From a virus (Duplodnaviria; Caudoviricetes): a DNA stretch of 58,269 bases. Below, piece after piece: positions 3,213 to 44,205 of the stretch. The stretch is from IMG/VR virus record IMGVR_UViG_3300027782_000098, positions 1-58,269 of that record, one strand, 5' to 3'. The translations under genes and the position numbers were made by a program. The notes beneath the pieces were generated by a model, which was not told the origin of the DNA, searched no databases, and worked only from the letters and a program-made list of their open reading frames with translations. Every line of letters begins with the position of its first letter. Within the stretch, counting starts at the first letter, position 1.

Positions 3213-3257
3213 TAATTCTTTTTAAGATAAATATACCGAACAAGTATCTTTTTAACT

Positions 3258-4679: not shown

Positions 4680-4687
4680 TATAAATA

Positions 4688-27042: not shown

Positions 27043-27453
27043 TTATACCGTATGCTCAATTTGAACTCTGATACAATTTTGAGGTAAGTGATTGATGTGA
27101 CGGTAGTTATTAATGTACCCCATCATATTACCACTACCAATTGCATTTGCTGAGTGTACCACAACATCTACAACAGGTTGACCGTCCATCCATTGTTCTA
27201 CCAACCATTTAGTACAATCCATTCCTGTTTTTTCGGTAATGTTATCATAGTTCAATTCGTAGTTGTGGTAAACATTTTTATGCCATTCTTTCATGGCAGT
27301 ATCTCCCAAATCATGGTCTAAAGAAATCATATTAATGTTCTCTAACCCAATCTCGGTAATTTTTTCCACAAACTCATCGTAAGAACGAACAATAACCCAT
27401 TGGTCCTTTTCTACAGGAGTTCTTACGTCGTCTAAATATATTCTTTTTTTCAT
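27043..27453 (-). CDS. Cyclic-phosphate processing receiver (cREC)-like domain protein
   Basis: IYLDDVRTP, ISLDHDLG, TGMDCTKWL and VHSAN..G motifs. Confidence 0.75.
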   Translation of the reverse strand: MKKRIYLDDVRTPVEKDQWVIVRSYDEFVEKITEIGLENINMISLDHDLGDTAMKEWHKNVYHNYELNYDNITEKTGMDCTKWLVEQWMDGQPVVDVVVHSANAIGSGNMMGYINNYRHINHLPQNCIRVQIEHTV

Positions 27454-27499
27454 ACTATAATTCTTTTTACTAATTCTTTTCAAAACACAATTTTAATAA

Positions 27500-28000: not shown

Positions 28001-28045
28001 AGAACAAATATACTGATAATATTTGAGTTGGCAAAATAAAATGTG

Positions 28046-28131
28046 CGGAAAGTGAGGGGCTCGAACCCTCGCGACTTTGACATCCTACCTGTTTAGCAAA
28101 CAGGCCCCTTCACCAACTTGGGTAACTTTCC
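28046..28131 (-). tRNA. tRNA-Ser(GCU)
   Basis: Cloverleaf; anticodon arm CCTGT-TTGCTAA-ACAGG; long variable arm. Confidence 0.9.
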
Positions 28132-28709
28132 TATTTTTTAAAATACCAGGTCGCAAACTTTTCTTCCGTGGTATTAATTTTATATCCTTTATTGTTTGCA
28201 AATTCAATAACTGCTGAATTTACACCATACTTTCCAAGATATAAATTTTCATAATAAACATCAACATTCTTATCATCATCAGGTTTAAAGTTATCTAACC
28301 AATCATGACCTGAGAATAGTCCTCCTTTTTTTAATTTTGACCACCAACATTCAAGGTCTTTTTTAACTTCAAGATATGAATGATTTCCGTCAATATATAT
28401 AAAATCAAAATGTTCGTCAGGAAAGAATTTTGATGCAATATCCGATTTATTTTTAACAACTAAAACTCTATCGTCAAATTCCTTAATATTTTCTTTAAAC
28501 ACTGAAAACACTTCATTGAAATTTTTAAAGTTACATGGTTCATTATAATTATGAATTTCTTGATTATCCCAATAATCAACACACACCAGTTTACCGTCCC
28601 AATTTTTTAAAATATTACAAGCGTTTTCGCCGTATTCTACTCCAATTTCAACACCAATATTATACCCATTAGTTTTTAAAAATAATGGTAATTCATTTCT
28701 GTGTTTCAT
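28131..28709 (-). CDS. Class I SAM methyltransferase (Methyltransf_24-like)
   Basis: VEIGVEYG, DFIYIDGNHSY, LKKGGLFSGHDW. Confidence 0.85.
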   Translation of the reverse strand: MKHRNELPLFLKTNGYNIGVEIGVEYGENACNILKNWDGKLVCVDYWDNQEIHNYNEPCNFKNFNEVFSVFKENIKEFDDRVLVVKNKSDIASKFFPDEHFDFIYIDGNHSYLEVKKDLECWWSKLKKGGLFSGHDWLDNFKPDDDKNVDVYYENLYLGKYGVNSAVIEFANNKGYKINTTEEKFATWYFKK

Positions 28710-29029
28710 TATAACATTTGTGATATCATATAAGATAATTTATATCCTGTAAACGCACCCAATGCAGATGGGATTGGGAATACAATTAACTTACCTAAAT
28801 GTGTAACATATTTTGGTCGGTTAACAATCCTACCCATAAATAAATAATATGTTATATAACCAAGTAATACACCAATATCAATACGAGTTGAAATAAAAAC
28901 TACAAGTATTGCACCCAAAAAACCAAAAATAAAATTATCTCGAACACCCTCCCAAATTTCAGAAGTTGTGGCATCTTTATACTCTTTAACAATTTTTTTA
29001 ATTGTAACCTTTTCATTTTTCATAATCAT
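28709..29029 (-). CDS. Membrane protein
   Basis: Three hydrophobic segments; start moved downstream of tRNA-Ile(UAU). Confidence 0.6.
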   Translation of the reverse strand: MIMKNEKVTIKKIVKEYKDATTSEIWEGVRDNFIFGFLGAILVVFISTRIDIGVLLGYITYYLFMGRIVNRPKYVTHLGKLIVFPIPSALGAFTGYKLSYMISQML

Positions 29030-29037
29030 TTTTTTTG

Positions 29038-29111
29038 TCGGAAAGGAAGGAATTGAACCTTCGACCTTTTGTGTATAAGACAACTGCTCTCACCACCTGA
29101 GCTACATTCCG
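29038..29111 (-). tRNA. tRNA-Ile(UAU)
   Basis: Cloverleaf; anticodon loop CTTATAC. Confidence 0.85.
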
Positions 29112-29120
29112 TTTAAATAT

Positions 29121-29157
29121 AAAAAAAATCCCCCTGATTTTCAACTCAGAGGGATTA
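29121..29157 (-). terminator. Terminator-like hairpin after ferritin-like gene
   Basis: Minus strand AATCCCTCTGA-GTTGAAAA-TCAGGGGGATT followed by T tract. Confidence 0.65.
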
Positions 29158-29179
29158 TTAATAATAATAAATTTTAATA

Positions 29180-29638
29180 TTATTTTAAGAACCTTAATTT
29201 ATATAACGTACTATAAATTAATTCTTGAATTGTGTCAATTTGATTTTGGATAAAAGATTCTTTAACTGCTTTTCTGTTTTTTTCAATATTATCATCTAAC
29301 CCTTTAAAGTAAGATATCAGTTGTTCTGTTGATTTATAATCAACCATTTTGATGGTTTTATAACCAGTCAATAAATCGTGTTTTCCTTGGAAACTTTCAA
29401 CGATTCCGTCTATCAATTCACCTATCTCTTCATAATATCCACCTAACGCCATATGCTCAGCAAATGATGATTGTGATTTTGTTTGCCAATGAAATACATG
29501 AACTTGACTTCTTGAGTGAAGTAAAGTTGAAATCATATCAACAATATCAGCTGTTTCGGTTGACCCTTTTTTCTCAGCTTCATTCAATTGTATTACTTTA
29601 AACAATTGTTCTTTTGTTAGCGTTACTCTTTTTTCCAT
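29180..29638 (-). CDS. Dps/ferritin-like protein (DUF5856-like)
   Basis: H.FHWQT....FAEH.ALG.YYE.I..LID..VE motif; ATG at 29638 after TATTTAT. Confidence 0.75.
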   Translation of the reverse strand: MEKRVTLTKEQLFKVIQLNEAEKKGSTETADIVDMISTLLHSRSQVHVFHWQTKSQSSFAEHMALGGYYEEIGELIDGIVESFQGKHDLLTGYKTIKMVDYKSTEQLISYFKGLDDNIEKNRKAVKESFIQNQIDTIQELIYSTLYKLRFLK

Positions 29639-29667
29639 GTCAATAAATATACAAGTATTTGGAAATG

Positions 29668-29739
29668 TTGTGATGGAAGGAATTGAACCTTCGACTTCTT
29701 GGATATGAATCAAGTGTTCTACCACTGAACTACATCACA
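29668..29739 (-). tRNA. tRNA-Met(CAU), elongator or Ile2 not resolved
   Basis: Cloverleaf; anticodon loop TTCATAT. Confidence 0.8.
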
Positions 29740-29744
29740 ATATG

Positions 29745-29816
29745 TGGTTTTGGAAGGATTCGAACCCTCACTCTGAAATCCGTAGTTTCATGTGCTGTCC
29801 ATTACACCACAAAACC
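29745..29816 (-). tRNA. tRNA-Arg(ACG)
   Basis: Anticodon arm TGAAA-CTACGGA-TTTCA. Confidence 0.9.
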
Positions 29817-29820
29817 ATTG

Positions 29821-29891
29821 TTGCCCCTCAAGGATTCGAACCTCAACCGTCTGGACCAAAACCAGATGTCCTGCCGTTAGACGAAAGGGCA
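29821..29891 (-). tRNA. tRNA-Gln(UUG)
   Basis: Anticodon arm TCTGG-TTTTGGT-CCAGA; U1-A72. Confidence 0.9.
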
Positions 29892-29897
29892 ATTTAG

Positions 29898-29978
29898 TGG
29901 GAGTAGTAGGACTCGAACCTACGAACTCTTAGAGGGCTGATTTACAGTCAGCTGCACTTGCCGCTATGCGATACTCCC
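29898..29978 (-). tRNA. tRNA-Tyr(GUA)
   Basis: Anticodon arm GCTGA-CTGTAAA-TCAGC; long variable arm. Confidence 0.9.
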
Positions 29979-30109
29979 AAATAAGGAAAAGAGAAGATGG
30001 TTCAGTGGACATCTCTTTTTACAATTAGCGTTACTCTGACAGTTAAAACTCCCCCATAACTACGAACTACTGACACGTTAACGTTACGGACTTCCCTAAT
30101 CAACCTTAG

Positions 30110-30182
30110 CACGCCTGAGAGGACTCGAACCTCTGACTCCTAGTTTTGGAGACTAGAGCTCTACCAACTGAGCTACAGACGT
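30110..30182 (-). tRNA. tRNA-Trp(CCA)
   Basis: Anticodon arm CTAGT-CTCCAAA-ACTAG. Confidence 0.9.
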
Positions 30183-30191
30183 GTATTATTG

Positions 30192-30263
30192 AGGTCGGTA
30201 TAGGAATTGAACCTATGTTGATAGTTTTGCAGACTATCGCCTAAACCACTCGGCCAACCGACC
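30192..30263 (-). tRNA. tRNA-Cys(GCA)
   Basis: Anticodon arm ATAGT-CTGCAAA-ACTAT; U73. Confidence 0.9.
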
Positions 30264-30269
30264 TTTTAG

Positions 30270-30344
30270 TGTCCCCGATGGGTCTCGAACCCATGACCCC
30301 TAAATTAAAAGTTTAGTGCTCTAAACCAACTGAGCTACGAAGAC
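30270..30344 (-). tRNA. tRNA-Lys(UUU)
   Basis: Anticodon arm CTAAA-CTTTTAA-TTTAG. Confidence 0.9.
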
Positions 30345-30350
30345 ATTAAG

Positions 30351-30424
30351 TTGTCACAGATGGACTCGAACCATCGACCTTCTCGGTATCAGCGAGATGC
30401 TCTAACCAACTGAGCTATGAGACA
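30351..30424 (-). tRNA. tRNA-Ile(GAU)
   Basis: Anticodon arm TCTCG-CTGATAC-CGAGA. Confidence 0.9.
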
Positions 30425-30495
30425 ATAAAAAGTAAAGTATGACGTATGCTCGTCCTGTAGTTGTTTCCATCCGCGGACTCACGGTTCTCTTTACT

Positions 30496-30586
30496 TGGCG
30501 GTGAGAGTAGGATTCGAACCCACGGTACCCTTTCAGGTACTTCGGTTTTCAAGACCGACGCAATCGACCAACTCTGCCATCTCACC
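30496..30586 (-). tRNA. tRNA-Ser(UGA)
   Basis: Anticodon arm TCGGT-CTTGAAA-ACCGA; long variable arm; encoded CCA. Confidence 0.92.
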
Positions 30587-30720
30587 ATAATATAGTGTTT
30601 TGGTCAACCACTCGCATCCCACCAATTTATTGTATCAAACTTTCTGTAGTGCAAACGATTAACTCTCCTACTACTCATTTTCAACTCACTTGCCTAAGCC
30701 TTGTCCGTTGTAAACACTTT

Positions 30721-30796
30721 TGGGTAACTAACGGGAATCGAACCCGTGACACCTTGAACCACAATCAAGTGCTCTGCCAACTGAGCTATAGCTACC
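30721..30796 (-). tRNA. tRNA-His(GUG)
   Basis: Anticodon arm CTTGA-TTGTGGT-TCAAG; G-1:C73; encoded CCA. Confidence 0.92.
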
Positions 30797-31012
30797 ATGT
30801 TGTCGTCCAATCATTTCTGACTGTCCCCAATACCGAATTTCAGCGGCAACTCACCAATTTCGTGAGGGGTTAGAACTCGTGTGTTAACTTGCTCCTGTTA
30901 CTGGTACACTAACCAACCGACTTAGACTCAAGTAATCGGCTCAGGTCCCCATGGTTGTAAAACCACTTCTCATCGTTCGGGAGCAAACTAGTCGTATACT
31001 ACTCGACTCGTG

Positions 31013-31145
31013 TAGTCAAGGTCGGACTCGAACCGAATACCGTTCAAGACGGATTAGACAACCTTACAACTTCTCGCGTCCAAATGATTATGGACCGTGG
31101 CGTCTTGGGGACTTGGGTACCATCCCGCATTACGTCCACTTGACT
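31013..31145 (-). ncRNA. tRNA-like RNA with acceptor and T arms but an expanded central region
   Basis: AGTCAAG/CTTGACT-A acceptor stem and TCGG-TTCGAGT-CCGA T arm around about 100 nt with no canonical anticodon arm. Confidence 0.6.
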
Positions 31146-31220
31146 ATTTACCCCACTTCACCAGCTTAATGGACTGGCTGCCATATGGGAGTGGGGGTTT
31201 CCTGTTATTTCAGGACTCCG

Positions 31221-31293
31221 TGGAACGGGGCGGAATTGAACCGCCGACACCTTGAGCTTCAATCAAGTGCTCTACCTACTGAGCTACCGTTCC
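31221..31293 (-). tRNA. tRNA-Phe(GAA), copy 2
   Basis: Anticodon arm CTTGA-TTGAAGC-TCAAG. Confidence 0.9.
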
Positions 31294-31713
31294 TTATTCT
31301 TTCCAGTTTCCCTCCTTGTAATGGATTTCTCTATGACAATTCGCACAAACTGGTATACATTTTTCCAATTCTTCTTTTAATAACCTCAAAGAACCTCTTT
31401 TTACTAAAGTTGAAATACGCTCTCTTTTATCTCTAATATGGTGAAAATCTAACACATACCAACGTTCATCACCACAAATAGAACATTTACACTTTTTTTT
31501 ATAATCAAATAAGAACTCTTTAACTTCTTTATTTGTTTTTAGTGCGGTTTTTCTAATCTTTGTTTTTCTGTCGTTTTTATTTTGAGAGTAACTATCTCTA
31601 TCTAACTGTCTTTTACATTCTTTACACATACTGTGTAAAATATTTTTTTCTTTATTCTTAAAGAAAAACTCACTTTCATCTTTTTCAATTAAACATCTTC
31701 CACATTTTTTCAT
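31294..31713 (-). CDS. HNH-like endonuclease
   Basis: CxxC...CxxC N-terminus; CSICG...LDFHH...KC.PVCANCHREIH. Confidence 0.85.
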   Translation of the reverse strand: MKKCGRCLIEKDESEFFFKNKEKNILHSMCKECKRQLDRDSYSQNKNDRKTKIRKTALKTNKEVKEFLFDYKKKCKCSICGDERWYVLDFHHIRDKRERISTLVKRGSLRLLKEELEKCIPVCANCHREIHYKEGNWKE

Positions 31714-31776
31714 AATAATCTTTTATTATAAATATCTCAAAAGGACTGAAAAGTTAAAAAAGTTTTCAGTTTTTTG

Positions 31777-31849
31777 TGGTGAGAGCAAGAATCGAACTTG
31801 CGGCACGTAGGGCTTCAACCTACTGCTCTACCTACTGAGCTATCACACC
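31777..31849 (-). tRNA. tRNA-Phe(GAA), copy 1
   Basis: Anticodon arm GTAGG-TTGAAGC-CCTAC. Confidence 0.9.
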
Positions 31850-31852
31850 AAA

Positions 31853-31962
31853 TTTGAGATTGAGAACCTCTGTGTTGTTAGGTAAGACCCAATTAGTCAT
31901 CATTTCTGATGGGTTATCAATTATCCTACTTATGGTTAATTCCTTTCTCACAGGAACAACAC
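31853..31962 (-). ncRNA. Structured RNA, tandem copy B (conserved scaffold, variable insert)
   Basis: GTGTTGTTCCTGTGAGAAAGGAAT-[60 nt]-ACAACACAGAGGTTCTCAATCTCAAA. Confidence 0.65.
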
Positions 31963-31965
31963 GGC

Positions 31966-32067
31966 TTTGAGGTTGAGAACCTCTGTGTTGTGCAAATGTG
32001 AATATACCCCATTATAAAGTTTATATTCACATCTGACTATTTCATTCCTTTCTCACGGGAACAACAC
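31966..32067 (-). ncRNA. Structured RNA, tandem copy A (conserved scaffold, variable insert)
   Basis: GTGTTGTTCCCGTGAGAAAGGAAT-[52 nt]-ACAACACAGAGGTTCTCAACCTCAAA. Confidence 0.65.
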
Positions 32068-32074
32068 AATATTG

Positions 32075-32212
32075 TTGATAATGATGGAGTACCCGTCTCG
32101 CTCCAATCTTAACAGCTTTCCTGAGTTTTATGAGGCCTCGGCTGAAAGGGTGATGAATTCCGATTCCATTCTGGATTGTCGACATCCGTTGAGTGGGGAA
32201 AACCATTATCAA
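32075..32212 (-). ncRNA. Candidate structured RNA
   Basis: GC-rich spacer closed by a 9-bp stem ttgataatg/cattatcaa. Confidence 0.5.
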
Positions 32213-32269
32213 TTTCTTTATTGACGGGGAGTAAGTCACCAACCACTAATACTTACTCCCCACCTTCTG

Positions 32270-32341
32270 TAGTCCGTACGGGAATCGAACCCGTCTTTTA
32301 TCCGTGAAAGGGATATGTCCTAACCGATAGACGAACGGACC
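32270..32341 (-). tRNA. tRNA-Glu(UUC)
   Basis: Anticodon arm TATCC-CTTTCAC-GGATA. Confidence 0.9.
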
Positions 32342-32346
32342 AAATT

Positions 32347-32403
32347 GGTAGTTTTACTCGGACTATTACACCATCGCGGTCTTTACTCCGACTATTATCT
32401 ACC
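32347..32403 (-). ncRNA. Candidate two-fold symmetric hairpin RNA
   Basis: GGTAG-ATAATAG-TCGGA-GTAAAG-ACC-GCGAT-GGT-GTAATAG-TCCGA-GTAAAA-CTACC. Confidence 0.5.
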
Positions 32404-32406
32404 TTG

Positions 32407-32478
32407 TAGTCCCTGTAGGATTCGAACCTACGACTTCTTGCATGTAAGGCAAGAGCTCTACCACTGAGCTAAAGGACT
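32407..32478 (-). tRNA. tRNA-Val(UAC)
   Basis: Anticodon arm CTTGC-CTTACAT-GCAAG. Confidence 0.9.
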
Positions 32479-32529
32479 GTATTTTTTTACCAACATGTCA
32501 AAGACCTCTTTTTGTTTCTTTCAACAGTA

Positions 32530-32560
32530 CAAAGATACTACTTTTTTTTGAACCGCCAAA
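32530..32560 (-). promoter_or_regulatory. Bacteroidota sigma-A type promoter for tRNA array 1
   Basis: TTTG-N19-TATCTTTG; boxA-like GGTCTTTGACA at about 32496-32506. Confidence 0.8.
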
Positions 32561-32563
32561 CCT

Positions 32564-32605
32564 AAAAACAAAAAACCCCAAACTTTTCTACAAAGTTCGG
32601 GGTTT
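32564..32605 (-). terminator. Attenuator terminator of leader 1
   Basis: AAACCCCGAACTTT-GTAGA-AAAGTTTGGGGTTT followed by TTTGTTTTT. Confidence 0.85.
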
Positions 32606-32632
32606 AAATATTCTGTTACTACTAACTTACTA

Positions 32633-32734
32633 TTAACCTAAATCTAATTCCGAACCACAATTTTGCCCATGACGATACCAGCTACAAATCTCTTGTTGCT
32701 TAAACGACGATATATGGACCATTGTTGTTCTCAT
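32633..32734 (-). CDS. Leader peptide 1 (33 aa), putative attenuator of tRNA array 1
   Basis: MRTTMVHISSFKQQEICSWYRHGQNCGSELDLG*. Codons 5-22 correspond to the tRNAs at 28046-32478. Confidence 0.85.
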   Translation of the reverse strand: MRTTMVHISSFKQQEICSWYRHGQNCGSELDLG

Positions 32735-32807
32735 TGTTTATAATTATACACAATATACTAAAAGTTTTAGTTTTGTCAAATAAATTTTTTAAAGTATTTA
32801 TAAAAAG

Positions 32808-33230
32808 ATGAAAACATTAAGACAAATTATTAAAGAAGAGTTATTAGTTGAGAAAAGAATTGCCCAAATAGGAGCTTCTTTAGAAGTTTTATTTTCATTT
32901 GATGTTAATAGAACATCTCACGCATTTGATAGAGCGGTTAGAGATGATATTATAGGTTATAATACAAGACCAATTGTAAATGCTGAAATCAAAGAGATTA
33001 TTAGTATGGCAAAAAATGAAATCGCACAAAAAATAGTTAGCCAAGAAATTAAAACAGAAGAACCATTTGTAGTTAAATCTTTAAAATGGGAATTGGCAAT
33101 GGCAATTACTCCTGTTCATATATCAGGGACTTATTGGGAATTAATTATTAAAACTGTGTTTAGAGAATCTAAATATGACCCGTTTAGAGTTGGTAAAGAC
33201 CAATTAGTTATTACTTTACAAGACGTATAA
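32808..33230 (+). CDS. Hypothetical protein
   Basis: 140 aa; TATTTATA upstream; leader MKTLRQIIKEELLVE. Confidence 0.7.
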   Translation: MKTLRQIIKEELLVEKRIAQIGASLEVLFSFDVNRTSHAFDRAVRDDIIGYNTRPIVNAEIKEIISMAKNEIAQKIVSQEIKTEEPFVVKSLKWELAMAITPVHISGTYWELIIKTVFRESKYDPFRVGKDQLVITLQDV

Positions 33231-33318
33231 AAAAAAGGGTAACACTAGTATCTGAATCGTTCCCGTGTCACCCATTTTGTAATTGAGCTTGTGTATCTAA
33301 ATCGTGCTCCTCAATCAC
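33229..33318 (-). ncRNA. Small RNA with two hairpins carrying the same loop ACGATTYAGATAC
   Basis: Own promoter TATCTTTG (33330-33323); hairpins GTGATTGAG/CTCAATTAC and GGGTGACAC/GTGTTACCC; ends in a U tract. Confidence 0.7.
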
Positions 33319-33359
33319 AGTACAAAGATAAGCAAAAATTTTAATTCACAAAATTATTT

Positions 33360-33935
33360 TTAATAATTTATTTGATGGTCCTGTTTAATAGTCATACTCT
33401 GGCCAACAATAACATTTCTTTTACCTTTTGTCACTGAGTTAACATAATGAGGATGGGTTAACCCACCTGGAAATATAACAATATCTCCTTCGTTTAGACG
33501 ATATTGTACATTTTGTCTTGGGAATACCAACTCACCACCTTCATAATCATTATCCAATCCTCCAACCATTGTTATATTACTAAAATCCCAATGAACTGAT
33601 TGTGAACCTCCCGCATATGTTTCAGGAGAATAGTATAACATATATAAATCTCTCCATATTGTTTTAACATATTCTTTTAAAGATTTGATGGTTTCATAAT
33701 TAACATTAAACCCAACATTATTTTCAACATCATAGATTTTAAAGTATTCTTCAAGATAATTGTTTTCAATTTTTAAAAACCAAAAATCATTTATTTTGTG
33801 AAATAAACTCATATCTAACTTATCAATATCAATCCTTATTTGAGTGTCATTACCTCTAAGTTTTAATAATTCAGAAATAATGTCTTTAGGTATGATTCTT
33901 TCAAAAACAAAAATATCAGTATCTATTTTAATCAT
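33360..33935 (-). CDS. 2OG-Fe(II) oxygenase
   Basis: HWD, YEGGEL.F, G..VIFP, H.V..VT.G.R. Confidence 0.85.
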   Translation of the reverse strand: MIKIDTDIFVFERIIPKDIISELLKLRGNDTQIRIDIDKLDMSLFHKINDFWFLKIENNYLEEYFKIYDVENNVGFNVNYETIKSLKEYVKTIWRDLYMLYYSPETYAGGSQSVHWDFSNITMVGGLDNDYEGGELVFPRQNVQYRLNEGDIVIFPGGLTHPHYVNSVTKGKRNVIVGQSMTIKQDHQINY

Positions 33936-34648
33936 ATACTGTCTTGAATATTAAAATTAATTACACATCTATGACTTTTACCATAAAATGGTTTAACTGA
34001 ATGTACAATATCGTATGGCCAAATAATCAACATACCTTTTTTTGGTCTAAGAAAATGTGACATACCTCTAACATGGAATGTAAATACACCACTATATGGA
34101 TGGTCAGCAATTGGTTCACCGTCAGACAAATAATATCCTCCAACAAAATTTAAAGGAGTTTCTTCGTCAGGAGACCAACGACAATGATTATGTTGATTAT
34201 GACCTCGACCTTCAGTTGGGTTATAATATTGAATCCAACTTTCTGTTATATTTGGATTATTGTTGTTTTTTAGTCCTAATGAATTAATTAACTCCAAATA
34301 ACCGTCCTCACACCTTTTCTTAATTGTTTTAACACATTGTTCATCTCTATTAAGAAAGTCGTTTGGCGGTGTCCAAAAACGACTACCAATTGGGTTATAC
34401 TCTGTAGGCTCAACCCACATGTCCCTTCTGTCGTAGTTTACAAAATAATTTGATTGTCTTTCCAAATCGTATTGCTCAGGTAATTCCTGACCCATTAATT
34501 TTTGTTGAGTACTTAAAGTATTGAATCCCAAATTAAAAACCTCATCATGTAATTCATGGTCATCAAAAATCTTCATGTATACAGGAATTGGAGCAAGGTG
34601 AAATATATTGCTCTGATTTGTTGAAACTAAAGGTGACTGTACATACAT
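33932..34648 (-). CDS. 2OG-Fe(II) oxygenase-like protein
   Basis: SW..Y, HNH, GYY, P..G.LIIWP....HSV.P......R..I.FN; start corrected to ATG 34648. Confidence 0.75.
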   Translation of the reverse strand: MYVQSPLVSTNQSNIFHLAPIPVYMKIFDDHELHDEVFNLGFNTLSTQQKLMGQELPEQYDLERQSNYFVNYDRRDMWVEPTEYNPIGSRFWTPPNDFLNRDEQCVKTIKKRCEDGYLELINSLGLKNNNNPNITESWIQYYNPTEGRGHNQHNHCRWSPDEETPLNFVGGYYLSDGEPIADHPYSGVFTFHVRGMSHFLRPKKGMLIIWPYDIVHSVKPFYGKSHRCVINFNIQDSI

Positions 34649-34663
34649 ATTTACATTTTTTTG

Positions 34664-34744
34664 TACCCCAAGTCGGACTCGAACCGACACGTCATAAGAC
34701 AAATGCTCCTAAGGCATTCGCGGCTACCATTACGCCATCGGGGT
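34664..34744 (-). tRNA. tRNA-Leu(UAG)
   Basis: Anticodon arm AATGC-CTTAGGA-GCATT; variable arm. Confidence 0.9.
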
Positions 34745-34746
34745 AT

Positions 34747-34844
34747 ATATCATTATCGCTTCAGCCACATCGAGGAACACGCCTCCCCCGCGTTGTTTAA
34801 GTGTATAACTTGCGCCGTATCTCACTGAGGTACGATAATGATAT
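34747..34844 (-). ncRNA. Candidate structured RNA between tRNA-Arg and tRNA-Leu
   Basis: Perfect 12-bp closing stem atatcattatcg/cgataatgatat around a GC-rich core. Confidence 0.55.
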
Positions 34845-34846
34845 TG

Positions 34847-34920
34847 TATCCCCGACAGGATTCGAACCTGTGACCTACTGCTTAGAAGGCAGTTGCTCTA
34901 TCCAGCTGAGCTACGGAGAC
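34847..34920 (-). tRNA. tRNA-Arg(UCU)
   Basis: Anticodon arm ACTGC-CTTCTAA-GCAGT. Confidence 0.92.
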
Positions 34921-34931
34921 ATTTTATTTTG

Positions 34932-35017
34932 TACCTGGGGCGGGAATCGAACCCGCACGGACATTACTGTCCACAAGATTTTAAGTCTTGCGTGGCTACC
35001 GATTACACCACCCAGGC
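34932..35017 (-). tRNA. tRNA-Leu(UAA)
   Basis: Anticodon arm CAAGA-CTTAAAA-TCTTG; variable arm. Confidence 0.92.
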
Positions 35018-35072
35018 GAATACATTTAAGAACTATGGTACAAATATAATAGATAAAATTGATTGCTACAAG

Positions 35073-35795
35073 CTATAGTGCAAAACTTTCTTCATATAAT
35101 GTATCCATCGCATCTTCTTCAACATTTATTGTGTGGTATAATGTGACAGTTCCATCATTGAAATTAAAAATGAATTTACCGTCAGAGCCCTCATTGATTT
35201 CCCATCCGCCAAAATTACTTTCAAGTACTCTATAACACCAATCCTCAATATGAGCAGGTACTGCGTCTCCTGTTGGTTCAAAAGAACTTTCAATATAACC
35301 TGAGTCACCACCACCATTATATGGTAATTCTAAAATACCGTCGTTTGGTACCTCAACATCAGAAAATAACCCCTCATCATCCCATTCTTTAAATCTTTCT
35401 TTATCATCTGTAGAGTCAAATTCAATTACGTTTTCACCTCCTCTATCATAATAACCCCAATAATGTGAAATTGAAATTTCTTTATCGTCAACATCAATAT
35501 TGATTTCAAGTTTTTGATAATTCATCATATCAATATCAGGGACAGTAAAAAGATTATCCTCATCAACGTGATTGATTAATTTTTTCAAAATAGGTATTAA
35601 TCCGTCAGGGATGTCTGCAGAATAATTGTTCGCAAAATGTGTGATGTATTTCCATTGAACCTCCTGAGCACTAAAATCATATGCTTCACTCTCAAGTTCA
35701 AATTCAATTAAACCATCTTTCATACCCAAAGAACCCAAGTAATTACAAACTCGGTTTAAGTATTTTTTTTCGTCTGTTGTTAAAATATTTTTCAT
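35073..35795 (-). CDS. DUF6878-like acidic protein
   Basis: YNGGGDSGYIE and GGWEINEGSDG motifs (family recalled from memory). Confidence 0.6.
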   Translation of the reverse strand: MKNILTTDEKKYLNRVCNYLGSLGMKDGLIEFELESEAYDFSAQEVQWKYITHFANNYSADIPDGLIPILKKLINHVDEDNLFTVPDIDMMNYQKLEINIDVDDKEISISHYWGYYDRGGENVIEFDSTDDKERFKEWDDEGLFSDVEVPNDGILELPYNGGGDSGYIESSFEPTGDAVPAHIEDWCYRVLESNFGGWEINEGSDGKFIFNFNDGTVTLYHTINVEEDAMDTLYEESFAL

Positions 35796-35806
35796 ATCAA
35801 TAAATA

Positions 35807-36154
35807 TCAATCTTCAATTTTAAGGGTCCTCAACATCCATTGAGGTCGTTTATTTTCTGAAATATTAGTCACCCATTCTTTTGCAGATGGGATATAATTA
35901 TTACAATCTTCTTTAACATGTTGTTCTCCAACATATCTTGTGTATACTATCTTACCATCACTATTTAAAAATTCAGGACCAAACCTTTTTTCCATTTCAA
36001 AAATACCTTCACTATGATGTCTAAACATTCTATGTAAAGAATCTCCAAACCATCCTTTAGTTTCATCCATCCATTCGTGTAAATGAATATAATCTTCTGG
36101 TTTTCCACCAAACTTTTTGGCGGATGATTTTGCGTGTAAATTAGGGTGTGCCAT
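35807..36154 (-). CDS. DUF6915-like His-rich protein
   Basis: MAHP..HA.SSAKKFGGKPEDY..LH.W.D, HR..RHHSEGIF, GEQHV.ED. Confidence 0.7.
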   Translation of the reverse strand: MAHPNLHAKSSAKKFGGKPEDYIHLHEWMDETKGWFGDSLHRMFRHHSEGIFEMEKRFGPEFLNSDGKIVYTRYVGEQHVKEDCNNYIPSAKEWVTNISENKRPQWMLRTLKIED

Positions 36155-36740
36155 CTTTCCAATAATCTTTATTATAATTATATTTTTTAAATTGACTTTC
36201 AGTCCTTGAATAAACAAAATCAGCTAACTCTTGACTGTAAAATGATTGCCAAGGAATTTCAATACCATGTTCAAATTTAAATGAATTTTTTCTTATTTTG
36301 TTTTCAAAACAATCTTCAAGTAATTCCATATTATTTTTAATGAACCACATATTTTTTAAATCTGATTCTAAAAATTCTGTCCTAAGATAAGCGTCAGGTT
36401 CTTTTGGTATTTCACTTAACGAATGGTCTAAATAAACTGTATAGTAATTTAAATGTTCATTTTGTTTATCTAACGCGCTTTTAATCCATGATGGAAAAAC
36501 TTCAATATCAAAACTGATTTGTTTATGAATACAAAATAATTTAAATAAAGAAACTAATCTAGGATATGGGTGTCTAATATTTACCACTAAAAAGTAATTC
36601 TCTTTATCCTTTCTAACAATTAACCCATGGTTATCATTTAAATTTGAAAATTTTAATAATTTTTGGATTTCACCACATGACCTAGATGCAGTTCTCATTG
36701 GATTTAACCAAACAACTTTTAATTCGTCATTATATCTCAT
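36141..36740 (-). CDS. Sulfotransferase-family protein
   Basis: 5'-PSB-like PMRTASRS and 3'-PB-like IRHPYPRLVS; start corrected to ATG 36740. Confidence 0.65.
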   Translation of the reverse strand: MRYNDELKVVWLNPMRTASRSCGEIQKLLKFSNLNDNHGLIVRKDKENYFLVVNIRHPYPRLVSLFKLFCIHKQISFDIEVFPSWIKSALDKQNEHLNYYTVYLDHSLSEIPKEPDAYLRTEFLESDLKNMWFIKNNMELLEDCFENKIRKNSFKFEHGIEIPWQSFYSQELADFVYSRTESQFKKYNYNKDYWKDGTP

Positions 36741-36742
36741 AG

Positions 36743-36817
36743 TGGAGCTAGTGAGAATCGAACTCACCTCAGAAACATTGCAAGTGTTTCTCGCCAAGCC
36801 TTGGTACATGTAACCCC
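36743..36817 (-). tRNA. tRNA-Ala(UGC), atypical D arm
   Basis: G3-U70 acceptor; anticodon arm AAACA-CTTGCAA-TGTTT. Confidence 0.8.
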
Positions 36818-36823
36818 TTGTTG

Positions 36824-36896
36824 AGCCTCCTGTCGGAATCGAACCAACGACCTACTGATTACAAATCAGTTGCTCTACCAGCTGAGCTAAGGAGGC
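36824..36896 (-). tRNA. tRNA-Thr(UGU)
   Basis: Anticodon arm ACTGA-TTTGTAA-TCAGT. Confidence 0.92.
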
Positions 36897-36952
36897 ATTG
36901 TAGTGGACGCAAGCTCATCACTTGCTCATGGGCTTCCACCGAGCCCCTTTTG

Positions 36953-37024
36953 CGGTCCCACGGAGAATCGAACTCCGAACTCAGCCGTGACAGGGCTGCA
37001 TTATAGCCGTTTAACTATGAGACC
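36953..37024 (-). tRNA. tRNA-Asp(GUC)
   Basis: Anticodon arm CAGCC-CTGTCAC-GGCTG. Confidence 0.9.
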
Positions 37025-37295
37025 AATTGTCCCCACCTGAGATTATAGTGAGTAGATTTTAACGGTTTTTTCGTCTTGAAAAAACATATCCCCTATTATC
37101 GTGTACAACCCCAAATAGGTTAACCGTAAGATAGGTCTTTTTCATTAGTGTCTTACCACATAAAAAAAGTCAAACATACTCGGTGGGTTTGTTAAGTCCA
37201 TTCTCCGAGAACCCCCTCTATAAAGTCGTGGAAGGCTACAACTATACCATTCTTAAGTAACGGTACCAAAACTATTGGGTATCTCTTACCCTTTG

Positions 37296-37367
37296 AGCGA
37301 ATGAGAGGAATCGAACCTCCGTCTCCTACTTGGAAGGAAGGAGTAATGACCATTATACGACATTCGC
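37296..37367 (-). tRNA. tRNA-Gly(UCC)
   Basis: Anticodon loop CTTCCAA; G1-C72, C2-G71, U73. Confidence 0.9.
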
Positions 37368-37372
37368 AATTG

Positions 37373-37444
37373 CGTCCCCTCAAGGATTCGAACCTTGGAC
37401 CTATTCGTTAACAGCGAATTGCTCTACCGCTGAGCTAAAAAGAC
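37373..37444 (-). tRNA. tRNA-Asn(GUU)
   Basis: Anticodon arm ATTCG-CTGTTAA-CGAAT; G73. Confidence 0.88.
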
Positions 37445-37449
37445 GATTG

Positions 37450-37523
37450 TCGGGGTGGCAGGATTTGAACCTACGACCTCTTGGTCCCAAACCAAGCGCG
37501 ATACCGAGCTACGCTACACCCCG
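37450..37523 (-). tRNA. tRNA-Pro(UGG)
   Basis: Anticodon arm CTTGG-TTTGGGA-CCAAG; C1-G72. Confidence 0.92.
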
Positions 37524-37558
37524 TCTATTTTTATTTTCCCATAAACCAAAGAACACTA

Positions 37559-37589
37559 CAAAGGTAATCAAAAAACCTTATAAAACAAA
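37559..37589 (-). promoter_or_regulatory. Bacteroidota sigma-A type promoter for tRNA array 2
   Basis: TTTG-N19-TACCTTTG, followed by boxA-like GTTCTTTG. Confidence 0.8.
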
Positions 37590-37620
37590 AAACCCTGAAC
37601 TTTATGTGTTCAGGGTTTTT
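37582..37620 (-). terminator. Attenuator terminator of leader 2
   Basis: AAAAACCCTGAAC-ACATAAA-GTTCAGGGTTTTT followed by TGTTTT. Confidence 0.85.
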
Positions 37621-37642
37621 AAATTTGGCTTCATTACTACCA

Positions 37643-37732
37643 TTATTTAACATCTGAACACGAGCATAGATTCCCTGTACCGTCGTTTGTCGGTGCTAAA
37701 GCTAATCTATTAAGCGTGTTTAATGTTGTCAT
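37643..37732 (-). CDS. Leader peptide 2 (29 aa), putative attenuator of tRNA array 2
   Basis: MTTLNTLNRLALAPTNDGTGNLCSCSDVK*. Codons 2-22 use only amino acids of the tRNAs at 34664-37523. Confidence 0.85.
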   Translation of the reverse strand: MTTLNTLNRLALAPTNDGTGNLCSCSDVK

Positions 37733-37737
37733 AATGT

Positions 37738-37745
37738 TATAAATA
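37738..37745 (-). promoter_or_regulatory. Putative phage late promoter TATTTATA upstream of leader 2
   Basis: Same motif precedes most structural genes in the window. Confidence 0.65.
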
Positions 37746-37770
37746 GTAATAAAAATTAAAAAATCAAACC

Positions 37771-38031
37771 CTAAAGGTATTTTTTAAACAAATCTTGTAA
37801 AATTTTATCATCTTCTTGAGATATACGATAATAAGATTCACTTAATTTATTCATTTTTTCAAGGAATTCTTCCTCTAAATTTCCTCGACGAACTTCAGTC
37901 GTATTACGAACTGTTTGAGGTAGATGTCCCGCATCAATTAACTCATCAATAAGTTCTTTAATTTCGTTTTTGCTGCATTCTGAGACAAACTCATAAGGTT
38001 CAACCTCAACATAACTGGTAAAATCTGGCAT
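37771..38031 (-). CDS. Hypothetical protein
   Basis: 86 aa ORF. Confidence 0.6.
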   Translation of the reverse strand: MPDFTSYVEVEPYEFVSECSKNEIKELIDELIDAGHLPQTVRNTTEVRRGNLEEEFLEKMNKLSESYYRISQEDDKILQDLFKKYL

Positions 38032-38069
38032 AGTTTATTTATTTAAAATGTTAAAAATTTTTCTTTGAG

Positions 38070-38285
38070 TTATTCGTTGTCGTAATCTTCCTCATAACTT
38101 TCAATTTTGTCCTCAACGTATTTACGAATTTTTCTCATGTTATCCAATAATTCCAATCTTAGTTTATGGAACTCTTCATCTTTGATTTCCTCAAATGAGC
38201 TGTAATGTTCAAAACAATAATCCATACCTTCATCTCTCATTCGGTAATCTACCGCTCGCCAATTTTCTAATTCTTCTTCTGTCAT
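38070..38285 (-). CDS. Hypothetical protein
   Basis: 71 aa ORF overlapping the mgsA stop codon. Confidence 0.6.
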   Translation of the reverse strand: MTEEELENWRAVDYRMRDEGMDYCFEHYSSFEEIKDEEFHKLRLELLDNMRKIRKYVEDKIESYEEDYDNE

Positions 38286-38677
38286 AAATTTTCTTTTTCT
38301 AATTTTCTTTCTAAACCTGAAATAATATAAGACGCTGTCATGTAATTTGTTGCAAGTGGTGTATTATACACATTACAAATTCTTAATAACATATTAACAT
38401 CCACTTGGTGGGGATGAACCTCCAACGGGTCGATAAAAAACACAACACCTGAAATTTCACCATCAGCAATCATTGACGCAATTTGAGCATCACCACCAAG
38501 TGGACCCGATTTCATACATTGAACATCTAATCCAGCATGTTCAATATGTCTTCCTGTTGTTCCTGTCGCAATAACGTCAACTTTTTTAAAGAAGTCCAAT
38601 CTTTTCATAATGAAAGCAACCATATCGGCTTTCTTACCATCATGAGCAATAACAGCAATTTTCATTTTTTTATTCAT
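38282..38677 (-). CDS. mgsA: Methylglyoxal synthase
   Basis: IAVIAHDGKK, ATGTTG, SGPLGGDAQI, FFIDPL..HPH..DV..L.R.C.V...PLATN. Confidence 0.93.
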   Translation of the reverse strand: MNKKMKIAVIAHDGKKADMVAFIMKRLDFFKKVDVIATGTTGRHIEHAGLDVQCMKSGPLGGDAQIASMIADGEISGVVFFIDPLEVHPHQVDVNMLLRICNVYNTPLATNYMTASYIISGLERKLEKENL

Positions 38678-38680
38678 TTG

Positions 38681-38754
38681 TGGACCAGCCTGGGCTCGAA
38701 CCAGGGACCTACGCATTATGAGTGCGGTGCTCTAACCAACTGAGCTACAAGTCC
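38681..38754 (-). tRNA. tRNA with CAU anticodon (Ile2-like or Met)
   Basis: Cloverleaf; anticodon loop CTCATAA. Confidence 0.85.
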
Positions 38755-44168: not shown

Positions 44169-44205
44169 AATATTTTACCTACATTTGTATCAAATAAAAA
44201 TCAAT

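What the first reader, a model, noticed from the sequence alone, without database searches (positions are those of the whole stretch)
31853..32067. Tandem pair of RNAs with near-identical pseudoknotted scaffold and unrelated central inserts
Seen: two adjacent units share 24-nt and 26-nt flanks (one mismatch each) around unrelated 52- and 60-nt inserts. On the transcribed strand, GTGTTGT pairs with ACAACAC; hairpin TTCC-yGTGAGAAA-GGAA exposes TGAGAA; the 3' hairpin GAGG-TTCTCAA-yCTC exposes TTCTCA, its exact complement (kissing loop). Each insert can form its own hairpin; in copy A a 14-bp stem presents AACTTTATAATGGGG. Inference: a conserved scaffold carrying a variable payload, as in guide or decoy RNAs. 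An HNH gene lies about 140 nt downstream on the same strand, but nothing in the sequence links them directly.
Basis: partly seen in the sequence, partly recalled or inferred. Interest (0 to 1): 0.72.

Follow-up and report, generated by a model that had tools for sequence, protein, structure and literature searches.

The report
Phage scaffold RNA with variable hairpin
Two neighbouring small RNAs inside a phage's tRNA gene cluster belong to a large, apparently undescribed family of phage RNAs that keep an almost invariant knotted frame around a hairpin that differs from copy to copy; what they do is still unknown.

Summary
Two tandem units on the minus strand (32067-31966 and 31962-31853) share a 5' flank and a 3' flank around unrelated inserts.

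They are not a local oddity. The same flanks occur in several hundred loci fetched from viral and metagenome contigs, carrying 188 distinct inserts. No Rfam 15 family matches them.

The fold is a 6-bp P1, a 4-bp P2 hairpin, a variable hairpin and a 3' hairpin P3. The P2 loop is complementary to the P3 loop. P2, P3, the insert stems and, in one lineage, the loop-loop pairing show compensatory changes.

A longer form (type 2, about 250-300 nt) replaces P3 with a second domain. One copy is in the cultured crAss-like Cellulophaga phage phi14:2. It lies in an intergenic region reported as very highly transcribed and of unknown function.

Carriers include T4-like and non-T4-like phages. None of 22 near-complete carrier genomes has a reverse transcriptase. 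The HNH gene is a separate homing-type endonuclease.

Function is unknown. My best guess is a stable RNA co-processed with tRNAs that displays a variable hairpin.

The parts
31966..32067 (-). Unit B (type 1), 102 nt. P1 is 32062-32067 with 31985-31990. P2 is 32058-32061 with 32045-32048, loop 32049-32057. The variable insert with its 14-bp hairpin is 31991-32044. P3 is 31980-31983 with 31969-31972, loop UUCUCAA 31973-31979. The tail AAA is 31966-31968.
   Evidence: CM R1 gives 61.7 bits, E 3.4e-10. Fold. The insert allele is shared with L001 and L265, with a conserved loop and one compensatory pair.
31853..31962 (-). Unit A (type 1), 110 nt. P1 is 31957-31962 with 31872-31877. P2 is 31953-31956 with 31940-31943, loop 31944-31952. 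The variable insert is 31878-31939. P3 is 31867-31870 with 31856-31859 (one G-U pair), loop 31860-31866. The tail is 31853-31855.
   Evidence: CM R1 gives 50.3 bits, E 6.4e-8. The insert is identical to that of the single unit in L029.
31963..31965 (-). 3-nt spacer (GCC on the RNA strand) between the tandem units. The same AAAGCC junction joins tandem units in L002, L006 and L007.
32068..32212 (-). Companion structured RNA of about 145 nt, ending directly at the first base of unit B. It may be one transcript or domain with the units.
   Evidence: It is conserved directly upstream of a type-1 unit in 10 distinct sequences. RNAalifold gives 38 pairs, 7 with compensatory changes. There is no Rfam match.
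32269..32341 (-). tRNA-Glu(UUC), the upstream neighbour in the array.
31776..31849 (-). tRNA-Phe(GAA). It starts 3 nt after the AAA tail of unit A.
31294..31713 (-). HNH homing-type endonuclease gene between two tRNA-Phe copies. It is not part of the RNA element.
   Evidence: phrog_2255 at E 1.5e-29. tRNA-Phe copies at 31220-31293 and 31776-31849.

Best explanation
SHOWN: the two units are members of a large phage-borne family of small structured RNAs. They are encoded on the tRNA strand inside tRNA/tmRNA gene clusters and are packed 1-4 nt from neighbouring tRNAs. Each has a nearly invariant frame. P1 is GUGUUG/CAACAC. P2 is UUCC-CUUGAGAAA-GGAA and abuts P1. P3 is a 3' hairpin, GAGG-UUCUCAA-CCUC, or in the longer 'type 2' form a single-stranded UUCUCA followed by a second domain. 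The P2 loop is complementary to the UUCUCA(A) segment, giving a pseudoknot or kissing loop. A hairpin of 17 to more than 100 nt, different from copy to copy, emerges from the P1/P2 junction. INFERRED: the units are co-transcribed with the tRNAs. They are released by the tRNA-processing enzymes, with RNase P cutting at the 5' end of the downstream tRNA. They accumulate as stable RNAs because both ends are locked into the knotted frame. The frame serves as a folding and stability platform, and probably as a protein handle. The variable hairpin is the working part. It would be a decoy, aptamer or regulator used in phage-host or phage-phage conflict, exchanged between phages by recombination at the invariant flanks.
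For: Family and frame: anchoring only on the 17-nt P2 motif gave 115 distinct matches in viral contigs. Of these, 107 have exact GUGUUG immediately upstream (114 with at most 1 mismatch), and 103 have CAACAC plus a CUCA-type segment downstream. CM R1 finds 93 matches at E <= 0.001 in 85 sources.

Structure: on 91 units, 95.5% of cells are paired against 39-52% when partners are slid, and 0 of 500 shuffles reach any of the five measures. P2 and P3 each have two pairs changed on both sides. phi14:2 has P2 = UCAC/GUGG and L028 has ACC/GGU. RNAalifold finds P1 and P3 on its own.

Pseudoknot: loop CUUUGGAAA goes with 3' UUCCAAG in L473, L488/L494 and L491. That is an A-U to G-C change and a G-C to U-A change.

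Strand: the single-sided changes that keep a pair are G-U (14 cells in P1, 5 in P2, 9 in P3). These would be A-C mismatches on the other strand.

Packing: ARAGORN finds a tRNA within 60 nt downstream of 22 of 78 units, with gaps of -2 to 9 nt, and upstream of 6 of 78, with gaps of 3-4 nt.

Payload: there are 188 distinct inserts in 159 clusters. Within alleles the stems covary: 3 compensatory pairs in an allele shared by type 1 and type 2 and 1 in the window's unit B allele. The window and L029 differ by presence or absence of exactly one unit.

Expression: the phi14:2 copy lies in the g004-g005 intergenic region. Drobysheva et al. report that region as transcribed rightward above most genes from the earliest time point (passages read).
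Against: No function is shown. The inserts of the window's units have no complementary match elsewhere in the 58-kb window above shuffled controls.

P1 shows no double-sided change, only G-U wobbles and 6 mismatched cells. Its sequence may therefore be conserved for another reason.

The pseudoknot covariation comes from one variant, possibly a single evolutionary event. There are counter-examples: L271/L496 combine the canonical loop with UUCCAAG; L464 and L478 have one mismatch; L474 and L480 have no visible partner.

Relatives were found with exact-match patterns, so diversity of the flanks is under-sampled. Transcription of type-1 units has not been seen. Assigning the phi14:2 copy to the published region rests on my reading of gene numbers. 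With only 1 nt between P1 and P3, an intramolecular 7-bp loop-loop helix looks strained (my inference), so the pairing may be intermolecular or alternative.
Confidence: 0.4

Rival explanations
1. The invariant frame itself is the functional unit. It would bind a conserved host or phage factor or ligand, or mimic one of their natural RNA partners. The insert would be only a tolerated, fast-drifting peripheral hairpin that must merely fold.
For: The flanks are nearly identical across unrelated phage types: T4-type portal in 8 of 22 near-complete carriers and absent in 14; crAss-like phi14:2. P1 is conserved in sequence, not just in pairing. The inserts are hypervariable, with 139 of 159 clusters being singletons and lengths of 17-107 nt. 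The frame occurs as a module in three contexts: alone, fused behind the 150-nt companion RNA, and as the 5' domain of type 2.
Against: Particular insert alleles are kept across contigs with conserved loops and compensatory stem changes. Genomes often carry 2-4 units with different inserts. That would be odd if only the frame mattered.
Confidence: 0.27
2. A processing element for multi-RNA transcripts. It would be either a new self-cleaving ribozyme or a tRNA-minihelix-like signal, with P1 stacked on P2, that directs RNase P or RNase Z cuts between neighbouring stable RNAs.
For: Units sit exactly at junctions. There is a 0-nt gap after the companion RNA, 3-4 nt after upstream tRNAs and 1-3 nt before downstream tRNAs, and they occur in tandem with a fixed AAAGCC junction. 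A pseudoknotted core with an optional variable hairpin is typical of small ribozymes (recalled). The window encodes cyclic-phosphate-processing and RNA-ligase proteins: cREC_REC, HAD_SAK_2 and Rnl1.
Against: No known ribozyme family matches, even at E <= 10. Few conserved unpaired nucleotides are left outside the helices. Type 2 copies have their own upstream promoter-like TATAAATA and are followed by unrelated ORFs, where no processing role is evident. Insert alleles are conserved.
Confidence: 0.13
3. Template or guide RNAs of a reverse-transcriptase system, like the UG27 variable ncRNA arrays, retrons or DRT ncRNAs.
For: The concept is similar to UG27 arrays described in a 2026 preprint: arrays of structurally conserved, sequence-diverse units with a basal hairpin and a pseudoknot, in phages of Bacteroidota, with gain and loss of single units (section 9 read).
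Against: RVT_1 (PF00078) is found in 0 of 23 records carrying the RNA, 22 of them at least 90% complete, while the control genomes ring. UG27 units are about 135-167 nt with little primary-sequence conservation and sit beside the RT genes. These units are 75-155 nt with invariant flanks and sit among tRNAs.
Confidence: 0.02
4. A degenerate or unconventional tRNA, for example the missing tRNA-Ala, or a tRNA decoy for anticodon nucleases.
For: The location is a tRNA array. The RNA has four helices of tRNA-like sizes with a loop-loop contact. The array has no tRNA-Ala.
Against: ARAGORN and the Rfam tRNA model do not call the units. The order of helices differs, since P3 lies outside P1. There is no G3-U70 and no T-loop or CCA-type end (tRNA features recalled). 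The insert loops are 9-16 nt or are complex hairpins.
Confidence: 0.04
5. A DNA-level element such as a recombination site, a cassette boundary or a miniature mobile element, and not an RNA.
For: Short inverted repeats (GTGTTGT/ACAACAC) flank variable DNA. There is unit-level gain and loss, and inserts are shared between contexts.
Against: The G-U-only single-sided changes and the folding asymmetry favour one strand. The two flanks are asymmetric. There are compensatory changes in hairpins. The phi14:2 region is highly transcribed.
Confidence: 0.04

Closest known systems
Phage T4 small stable RNAs RNAD (species 2) and RNAC (species 1) of the tRNA cluster
   Same: They are non-tRNA stable RNAs in the tRNA cluster of a T4-type phage, on the tRNA strand, directly after a tRNA. 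T-even RNAD also has conserved 5' and 3' parts around a variable centre. T4 RNAD carries UGAUGGUUCCCUGAGUAAGGAAU and CAUCACAG, which resemble this frame. RNAD is followed by RNAC, which has a T arm. In the same way, many type-1 units are followed by a tRNA-like RNA with a variable centre. Their function is unknown (Uzan & Miller 2010, passage read). A convergent SNP in rnaD arose in a T4-like phage adapting to a semi-permissive host (PMC12685909, passages read).
   Different: Homology is not supported. CM R1 scores T4 rnaD at 10.8 bits, E 0.43, and gives no comparable hit in six other T-even rnaD loci. T-even RNAD has an extra 5' hairpin and a longer outer stem, and no partner for the P2-like loop.
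UG27 reverse-transcriptase-associated variable ncRNA arrays (bioRxiv 10.64898/2026.09.22.753630)
   Same: They are phage-borne arrays of units with a conserved architecture, diverse sequence, a basal hairpin and a pseudoknot. Single units are gained and lost, and the phages often infect Bacteroidota.
   Different: No RT is present in 0 of 23 carrier records. Here the flanks are invariant in sequence and the context is tRNA genes, not an RT operon.
GOLLD / ROOL large ornate RNAs
   Same: They are phage-associated RNAs of unknown function. By recall, they are often found next to tRNA genes and in lake metagenomes. They form homo-oligomers (Nature 2025; search listing and start of abstract only).
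   Different: They are many times larger. No Rfam GOLLD or ROOL match was found in the window or in 26 related loci. Oligomerisation of the present RNA is only a possibility raised by the loop-loop complementarity.
Type III toxin-antitoxin RNAs (ToxI-like pseudoknot repeats) and phage pseudo-ToxI
   Same: They are tandem pseudoknotted RNA units that phages can carry as mimics (listing and abstracts).
   Different: By recall, those repeats are short, near-identical copies next to an endoRNase toxin gene. Here the units differ in their centre, are 75-155 nt long, and the neighbours are tRNAs and an HNH gene.
tRNA (as a natural scaffold) in the same arrays
   Same: The genomic niche, size class and close packing are the same, and the maturation machinery is probably the same. 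One conserved frame occurs in several copies that differ in one arm.
   Different: The helix order differs, the loop-loop contact is Watson-Crick, and the tRNA models give no match.

Membership tests
Any Rfam 15 family (4227 models) | Covariance-model match at or near the gathering score | tested here: not met
   There is no match on the units at gathering score. At E <= 10 only noise overlaps them: SNORD69 at 18 bits, SPRY4-IT1_2 at 12 bits and sR3 at 11.7 bits. Units in 26 related loci also give no match.
tRNA | Cloverleaf recognised by ARAGORN or RF00005 | tested here: not met
   25 tRNAs are called in the window, none on the units.
T4 RNAD (species 2 RNA) | Location in the tRNA cluster of a T4-type phage, same strand, next to a tRNA | tested here: met
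   Window: T4-type portal, terminase and prohead protease, and units between tRNA-Glu and tRNA-Phe. T4: rnaD next to tRNA-Arg.
T4 RNAD (species 2 RNA) | Detectable sequence and structure similarity | tested here: not met
   R1 against the T4 tRNA region gives rnaD as the best hit, but at 10.8 bits, E 0.43. No comparable hit appears in the other T-even rnaD loci.
RT-templated ncRNA (UG27 arrays, retron msr-msd, DRT ncRNA) | Reverse transcriptase gene in the same element | tested here: not met
   PF00078 is found in 0 of 23 records (22 at least 90% complete), with a positive control in 3 reference genomes. No RVT hit appears among 44 window ORFs.
Small self-cleaving ribozymes (hammerhead, twister, twister-sister, pistol, hatchet, HDV-like) | Match to the family model | tested here: not met
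   No hits at E <= 10, E <= 5 or E <= 1.
Small self-cleaving ribozymes (any, including a new class) | Site-specific self-cleavage | not testable with these tools
   This needs an in-vitro transcript assay.
HNH-associated RNAs (HEARO / IscB omega RNA) | RNA model match and an adjacent large IscB-type HNH/RuvC protein | tested here: not met
   There is no RF02033 hit. The HNH ORF is 139 aa, of homing-endonuclease type, and a tRNA separates it from the units.
CRISPR repeat-spacer units or RNA anti-CRISPR repeats | The same repeat on both sides of the variable part | tested here: not met
   The 5' and 3' flanks are different sequences. The repeat families D2 and D3 are distinct.
Type III TA antitoxin RNA | Near-identical short tandem repeats beside an endoRNase toxin gene | tested here: not met
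   The units share only their flanks. Pfam hits of 44 window ORFs include no such toxin family. The criterion itself is recalled.
The new family defined here (model R1) | P1 + P2 + P3 frame with an insert at the P1/P2 junction | tested here: met
   61.7 and 50.3 bits. They are the only two hits below E 0.01 in the window.

The most novel reading that the evidence does not exclude
Phages of at least two unrelated lineages share a horizontally exchanged RNA 'display platform'. It is an invariant pseudoknotted clamp that is matured like a tRNA and presents a hypervariable hairpin. Each genome holds a small repertoire of such RNAs, 1-4 per genome, with cassettes swapped by recombination at the flanks. 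The repertoire would act as decoys or inhibitors of host defence or RNA-targeting factors. The complementary P2 and P3 loops may pair between molecules and build dimers or rings. The T4 RNAD/RNAC pair, unexplained for 50 years, would be the enterobacterial counterpart.
Probability: 0.2. Interest if true: 0.9.

Novelty: categorically new. Interest (0 to 1): 0.74.

Why it matters
This is a widespread phage RNA with a frame that is nearly invariant across unrelated phage lineages, which points to a conserved interaction that nobody has named.

It gives a sequence-defined handle, a covariance model and a cultured phage-host pair (Cellulophaga baltica / phi14:2). These can be used to study the 'highly transcribed non-coding RNA of unknown function' reported for that crAss-like phage. 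They may also help with the long-unexplained small stable RNAs of T4-type tRNA clusters.

If the variable hairpins are effectors, this would be a new kind of diversified RNA repertoire in phage-host conflict. If the frame is the effector, it is a new RNA ligand or mimic of a core cellular machine. The frame may also be useful as a natural RNA expression scaffold.

Tried and rejected
1. Known RNA family. The Rfam gathering scan and E-value scans of the window and of 26 related loci found nothing on the units.

2. Similar DNA in cultured phages. For the 801-nt region only the tRNAs matched. With a short unit as query, only phi14:2 was real. Pseudoalteromonas phage HM1 (20-nt identity, 28 bits) lacks a 3' partner and lies in what reads like coding sequence, so I rejected it.

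3. Homology to T4 rnaD. Not significant.

4. Type 2 as a cis-regulator of one gene. Downstream ORFs are unrelated; the largest cluster is 4 of 79.

5. Antisense target of the window's inserts within the window. The best hits of 22-24 bits are below the shuffle means of 24-25 bits.

6. Host gene or prophage in bacteria. There were only 8 hits among genomes of 185,579 species. All are in MAG contigs of inconsistent phyla, so they are probably binned phage DNA.

7. RT association. None.

8. tmRNA association. 12 of 80 type-2 loci have a tmRNA gene downstream on the same strand, and 8 of 23 carrier records have a tmRNA over the cut-off. It is frequent but not obligatory.

9. Divergent paralogues in 47 carrier records. 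The weaker CM hits I inspected, in two loci, were pieces of long-insert units.

10. Earlier scan notes. None exist for this sequence or genome.

11. Fremin et al. 2023 catalogue of 8,495 IMG/VR candidate RNAs. Six sample numbers taken from carrier contig names gave no occurrence in the six supplementary files that could be searched. Two large files could not be read and one was left unsearched. The motif may therefore be listed there without a name.

12. ARAGORN intron mode on the downstream tRNA-like RNAs. It gave inconsistent anticodons and intron positions, so I rejected reading them as intron-bearing tRNAs.

Full report
**Observation**

They are 31853-31878 / 31966-31991 (26 nt, 96%) and 31936-31962 / 32041-32067 (27 nt, 93%). 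Each flank occurs twice in the window and never in 100 shuffles.

Read on the minus strand, both units begin GUGUUGUUCCyGUGAGAAAGGAA and end ACAACACAGAGGUUCUCAAyCUCAAA. The minus strand folds better than the plus strand, with z -4.56 and -1.86 against -2.92 and -0.29.

The window is an IMG/VR virus record estimated at 19% complete. It has a T4-type portal, large terminase and prohead protease, and about 32% G+C.

It carries 25 tRNA genes, all on the minus strand between 28045 and 38754, and a tmRNA at 21012-21394. It also encodes RNA-repair-type proteins: HAD_SAK_2, cREC_REC and T4 RNA ligase 1.

The units lie between tRNA-Glu (32269-32341) and tRNA-Phe (31776-31849). tRNA-Phe begins 3 nt after the unit's AAA tail.

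The 'HNH gene' (31294-31713) is real: phrog_2255 at E 1.5e-29, with Pfam HNH at only E 0.16. It lies beyond that tRNA and between two tRNA-Phe copies. It looks like an ordinary homing endonuclease in a tRNA cluster, as segB is in T4.

**A large family**

Exact-pattern scans of viral contigs with either flank returned 8 and 21 loci.

Of its 115 distinct matches:
- 107 have GUGUUG immediately upstream (114 with at most 1 mismatch);
- 103 have CAACAC plus a CUCA-type segment downstream.

The parts therefore travel together, and this is not a result of how they were searched.

I built a covariance model (R1) from 30 short units that I picked for diversity. It finds only the two units in the window, at 61.7 and 50.3 bits; the next hit scores 20.5 bits at E 0.05. 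It finds 93 matches at E <= 0.001 in 85 sources.

No Rfam 15 family matches the units in the window or in 26 related loci.

**Two architectures**

Type 1, as in the window, ends CAACAC-A-GAGG(n)-UUCUCA(n)-CCUC-AAA.

Type 2 has these features:
- A small 5' hairpin precedes it.
- It reads CAACAC-AAAUGAG-UUCUCA-GC and continues into a second domain. This is an optional hairpin, then ACCCUACUCUUAUA...UAUAAGAnAGAGGGUGCUAA.
- The whole RNA is about 250-300 nt.
- Some copies have TATAAATA about 30 nt upstream. As I recall, that is the T4 late-promoter consensus.

A scan for the type-2 junction gave 117 loci. Of the 80 loci with 2-kb flanks, 12 have a tmRNA gene downstream on the same strand. The first downstream ORFs are unrelated, the largest cluster being 4 of 79. 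Type 2 is therefore not the leader of one gene.

**Fold**

On a MAFFT alignment of 91 units, I named a structure with P1 of 6 bp, P2 of 4 bp, P3 of 4 bp and a 7-bp loop-loop helix. The counts are as follows:
- 95.5% of cells form standard pairs, against 39-52% when partners are slid.
- 0 of 500 column shuffles reach any of the five measures.
- P2 and P3 each have two pairs changed on both sides.
- P1 has none. It has only G-U wobbles (14 cells) and 6 mismatched cells.

More divergent copies add P2 = UCAC/GUGG (phi14:2), UUCA/UGAA (L010, L014) and ACC/GGU (L028). RNAalifold finds P1 and P3 unaided. The wobble pairs fix the transcribed strand as that of the tRNAs.

For the loop-loop pairing, the sampled sequences hardly vary. 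I therefore scanned metagenomes for units whose P2 loop lacks the central G. By my reading, 8 of the 34 distinct matches belong to the family:
- L473, L488 and L491 have loop CUUUGGAAA together with 3' UUCCAAG. These are two compensatory changes that keep all seven pairs. L494 is a viral-contig copy with the same insert as L488.
- L464 and L478 have one uncompensated mismatch.
- L474 and L480 run straight into a tRNA with no visible partner.
- L476 also has loop CUUUAGAAA but lacks the usual 3' tail.

Against the pairing, L271 keeps the canonical loop with UUCCAAG. L496, which has the same 3' segment, may be the same locus; I did not compare them.

The pseudoknot is thus supported, but by what may be a single evolutionary event.

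In type 2 the geometry is that of a classical hairpin-type pseudoknot. In type 1 only one nucleotide links P1 to P3. By my own reasoning, a full intramolecular kiss would then be strained and pairing between molecules is conceivable. Nothing here tests that.

**Inserts**

Across the fetched loci there are 188 distinct inserts.

They are not junk:
- Two identical inserts and several clusters are shared between type-1 and type-2 frames.
- One allele, shared between type 1 (L207, L018) and type 2 (L240), shows three compensatory pairs in its basal stem.
- The window's unit B allele recurs in L001 and L265, with a conserved loop AAACUUUAyAAUGGG and one compensatory pair.
- The window's unit A insert is identical to the single unit of L029, which lacks unit B altogether. 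Whole units are therefore gained or lost.

Carrier records hold 1-4 units: 45 of 47 records were hit, including 22 of 22 that are at least 90% complete. L265/L442 holds four units in 2 kb.

**Distribution**

Among 22 near-complete carrier genomes of 87-373 kb, 8 have a T4-type portal and 14 do not. One of the 14 is the cultured crAss-like Cellulophaga phage phi14:2, where R1 scores 45.7 bits at 3132-3227.

Genomes of 185,579 bacterial and archaeal species gave only 8 hits, all in MAG contigs of inconsistent phyla. The RNA is therefore phage-borne. No reverse transcriptase is present in any of the 23 records tested.

ARAGORN places a tRNA within 60 nt downstream of 22 of 78 unique type-1 units, with gaps of -2 to 9 nt. 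It places one upstream of 6 of 78, with gaps of 3-4 nt.

**Expression**

[quoted passage not shown] Transcription starts at the earliest time point and does not decline, and the functions 'remain to be determined'.

RefSeq places g004 at 2194-2904 and g006 at 4602-4901. The type-2 RNA on the + strand, from 3132 to about 3360, falls in the first region. The tmRNA (4031-4502) falls in the second.

This mapping of gene numbers is my inference.

**Comparison with known systems**

- **T4 RNAD and RNAC.** These are the nearest precedent: stable RNAs of the tRNA cluster with 'biological roles unknown'. T-even RNAD also has conserved ends and a variable centre, and T4's copy has a UUCC-CUGAGUAA-GGAA hairpin. 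But R1 scores it at only 10.8 bits, E 0.43, and does not find the other T-even copies. I treat it as an analogue, not a demonstrated homologue.
- **UG27 arrays.** They are similar in concept but are excluded by the absence of an RT.
- **tRNA, known ribozymes, HEARO/omega RNA, CRISPR-type repeats and type III antitoxin repeats.** Each fails a defining feature; see the membership table.

**Mechanism**

What is shown:
- a conserved, strand-specific, structured RNA module in phage stable-RNA gene clusters;
- a hypervariable hairpin that is nonetheless structurally constrained.

What I infer:
- The units are co-transcribed with the tRNAs and released by tRNA-processing enzymes.
- They are stabilised by a frame that locks both ends.
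- They act through the displayed hairpin (confidence about 0.4).

The main rival is that the frame itself is the effector and the hairpin merely decorates it (about 0.27). A processing or ribozyme role comes third (about 0.13).

**Caveats**

- Relatives were ascertained by exact patterns.
- The alignments used for counting were chosen from those hits.
- E-values of R1 are rough.
- Host identity of the window's phage is unknown.
- Type-1 transcripts have not been observed.

Noticed in passing
window 32068-32212 (-): A second apparently undescribed structured RNA of about 145 nt ends exactly where unit B begins. It is conserved directly upstream of a type-1 unit in 10 distinct sequences. RNAalifold gives 38 pairs, 7 with compensatory changes. 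There is no Rfam match.
   Followed up: partly
L191, L238, L182, L293, L256, L266 and others, just 3' of type-1 units (not in the window): 35 of 78 type-1 units are followed within about 20 nt by a tRNA-like RNA. Its acceptor stem, D arm and T arm are conserved (AGUCAGGUGGCGGAAUUGGUAGACGC ... ACAGGUUCGAAUCCUGUCCUGACUAC). Its centre is variable, with the T arm starting 43-120 nt beyond the unit. ARAGORN intron mode gives inconsistent anticodons. It looks like a second 'conserved scaffold, variable centre' RNA, parallel to T4 RNAC after RNAD.
   Followed up: partly
window 31220-31293 and 31776-31849 (-), flanking ORF 31294-31713: Two tRNA-Phe(GAA) genes flank the HNH endonuclease gene. This suggests a homing-endonuclease insertion with duplication of its target tRNA.
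   Followed up: no
window 28045-38754 (-): The 25-tRNA array covers 19 amino acids and has no tRNA-Ala. The record is only about 19% of the genome.
   Followed up: no
window 32573-32779 (-): A promoter-like site (TTGACA-16-TATATT, 11 of 12) is followed by a strong terminator-like hairpin at 32605-32573. This may be a small RNA of about 170 nt. It has only weak similarity to Bacteroides sRNA BTnc060, at 23.5 bits against a 228.9-bit gathering score.
   Followed up: no
window 32226-32261 (-): A perfect 11-bp hairpin (GGGGAGUAAGU/ACUUACUCCCC, 14-nt loop) lies between tRNA-Glu and the companion RNA.
   Followed up: no
L014 490-599, L010 303-408, L009 630-742, L017 393-512: The Rfam tRNA model matches stretches of 106-120 nt. 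These are tRNA genes or tRNA-like genes with insertions of about 30-45 nt, next to the units.
   Followed up: no
L008 878-939: A freshwater-1 RNA (RF02979, 82.2 bits) lies in the same tRNA cluster as a type-1 unit. It is another orphan RNA motif in this niche.
   Followed up: no
window 24011-24586, 27043-27483, 56171-57226, 15360-17375, 44005-44886: The phage fragment encodes RNA-repair-type proteins (HAD_SAK_2, cREC_REC, T4 RNA ligase 1). It also encodes ClpB-like and ClpP proteins and its own tmRNA.
   Followed up: no
L213, L233, L247, L271 (downstream of type-2 RNAs): A conserved small hairpin (GUGyCCUCACAUGAGGrA) sits just before the 5' end of tRNA or tmRNA genes in L213, L233 and L247, and begins near the printed end of L271. 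It may be a leader or processing signal.
   Followed up: no
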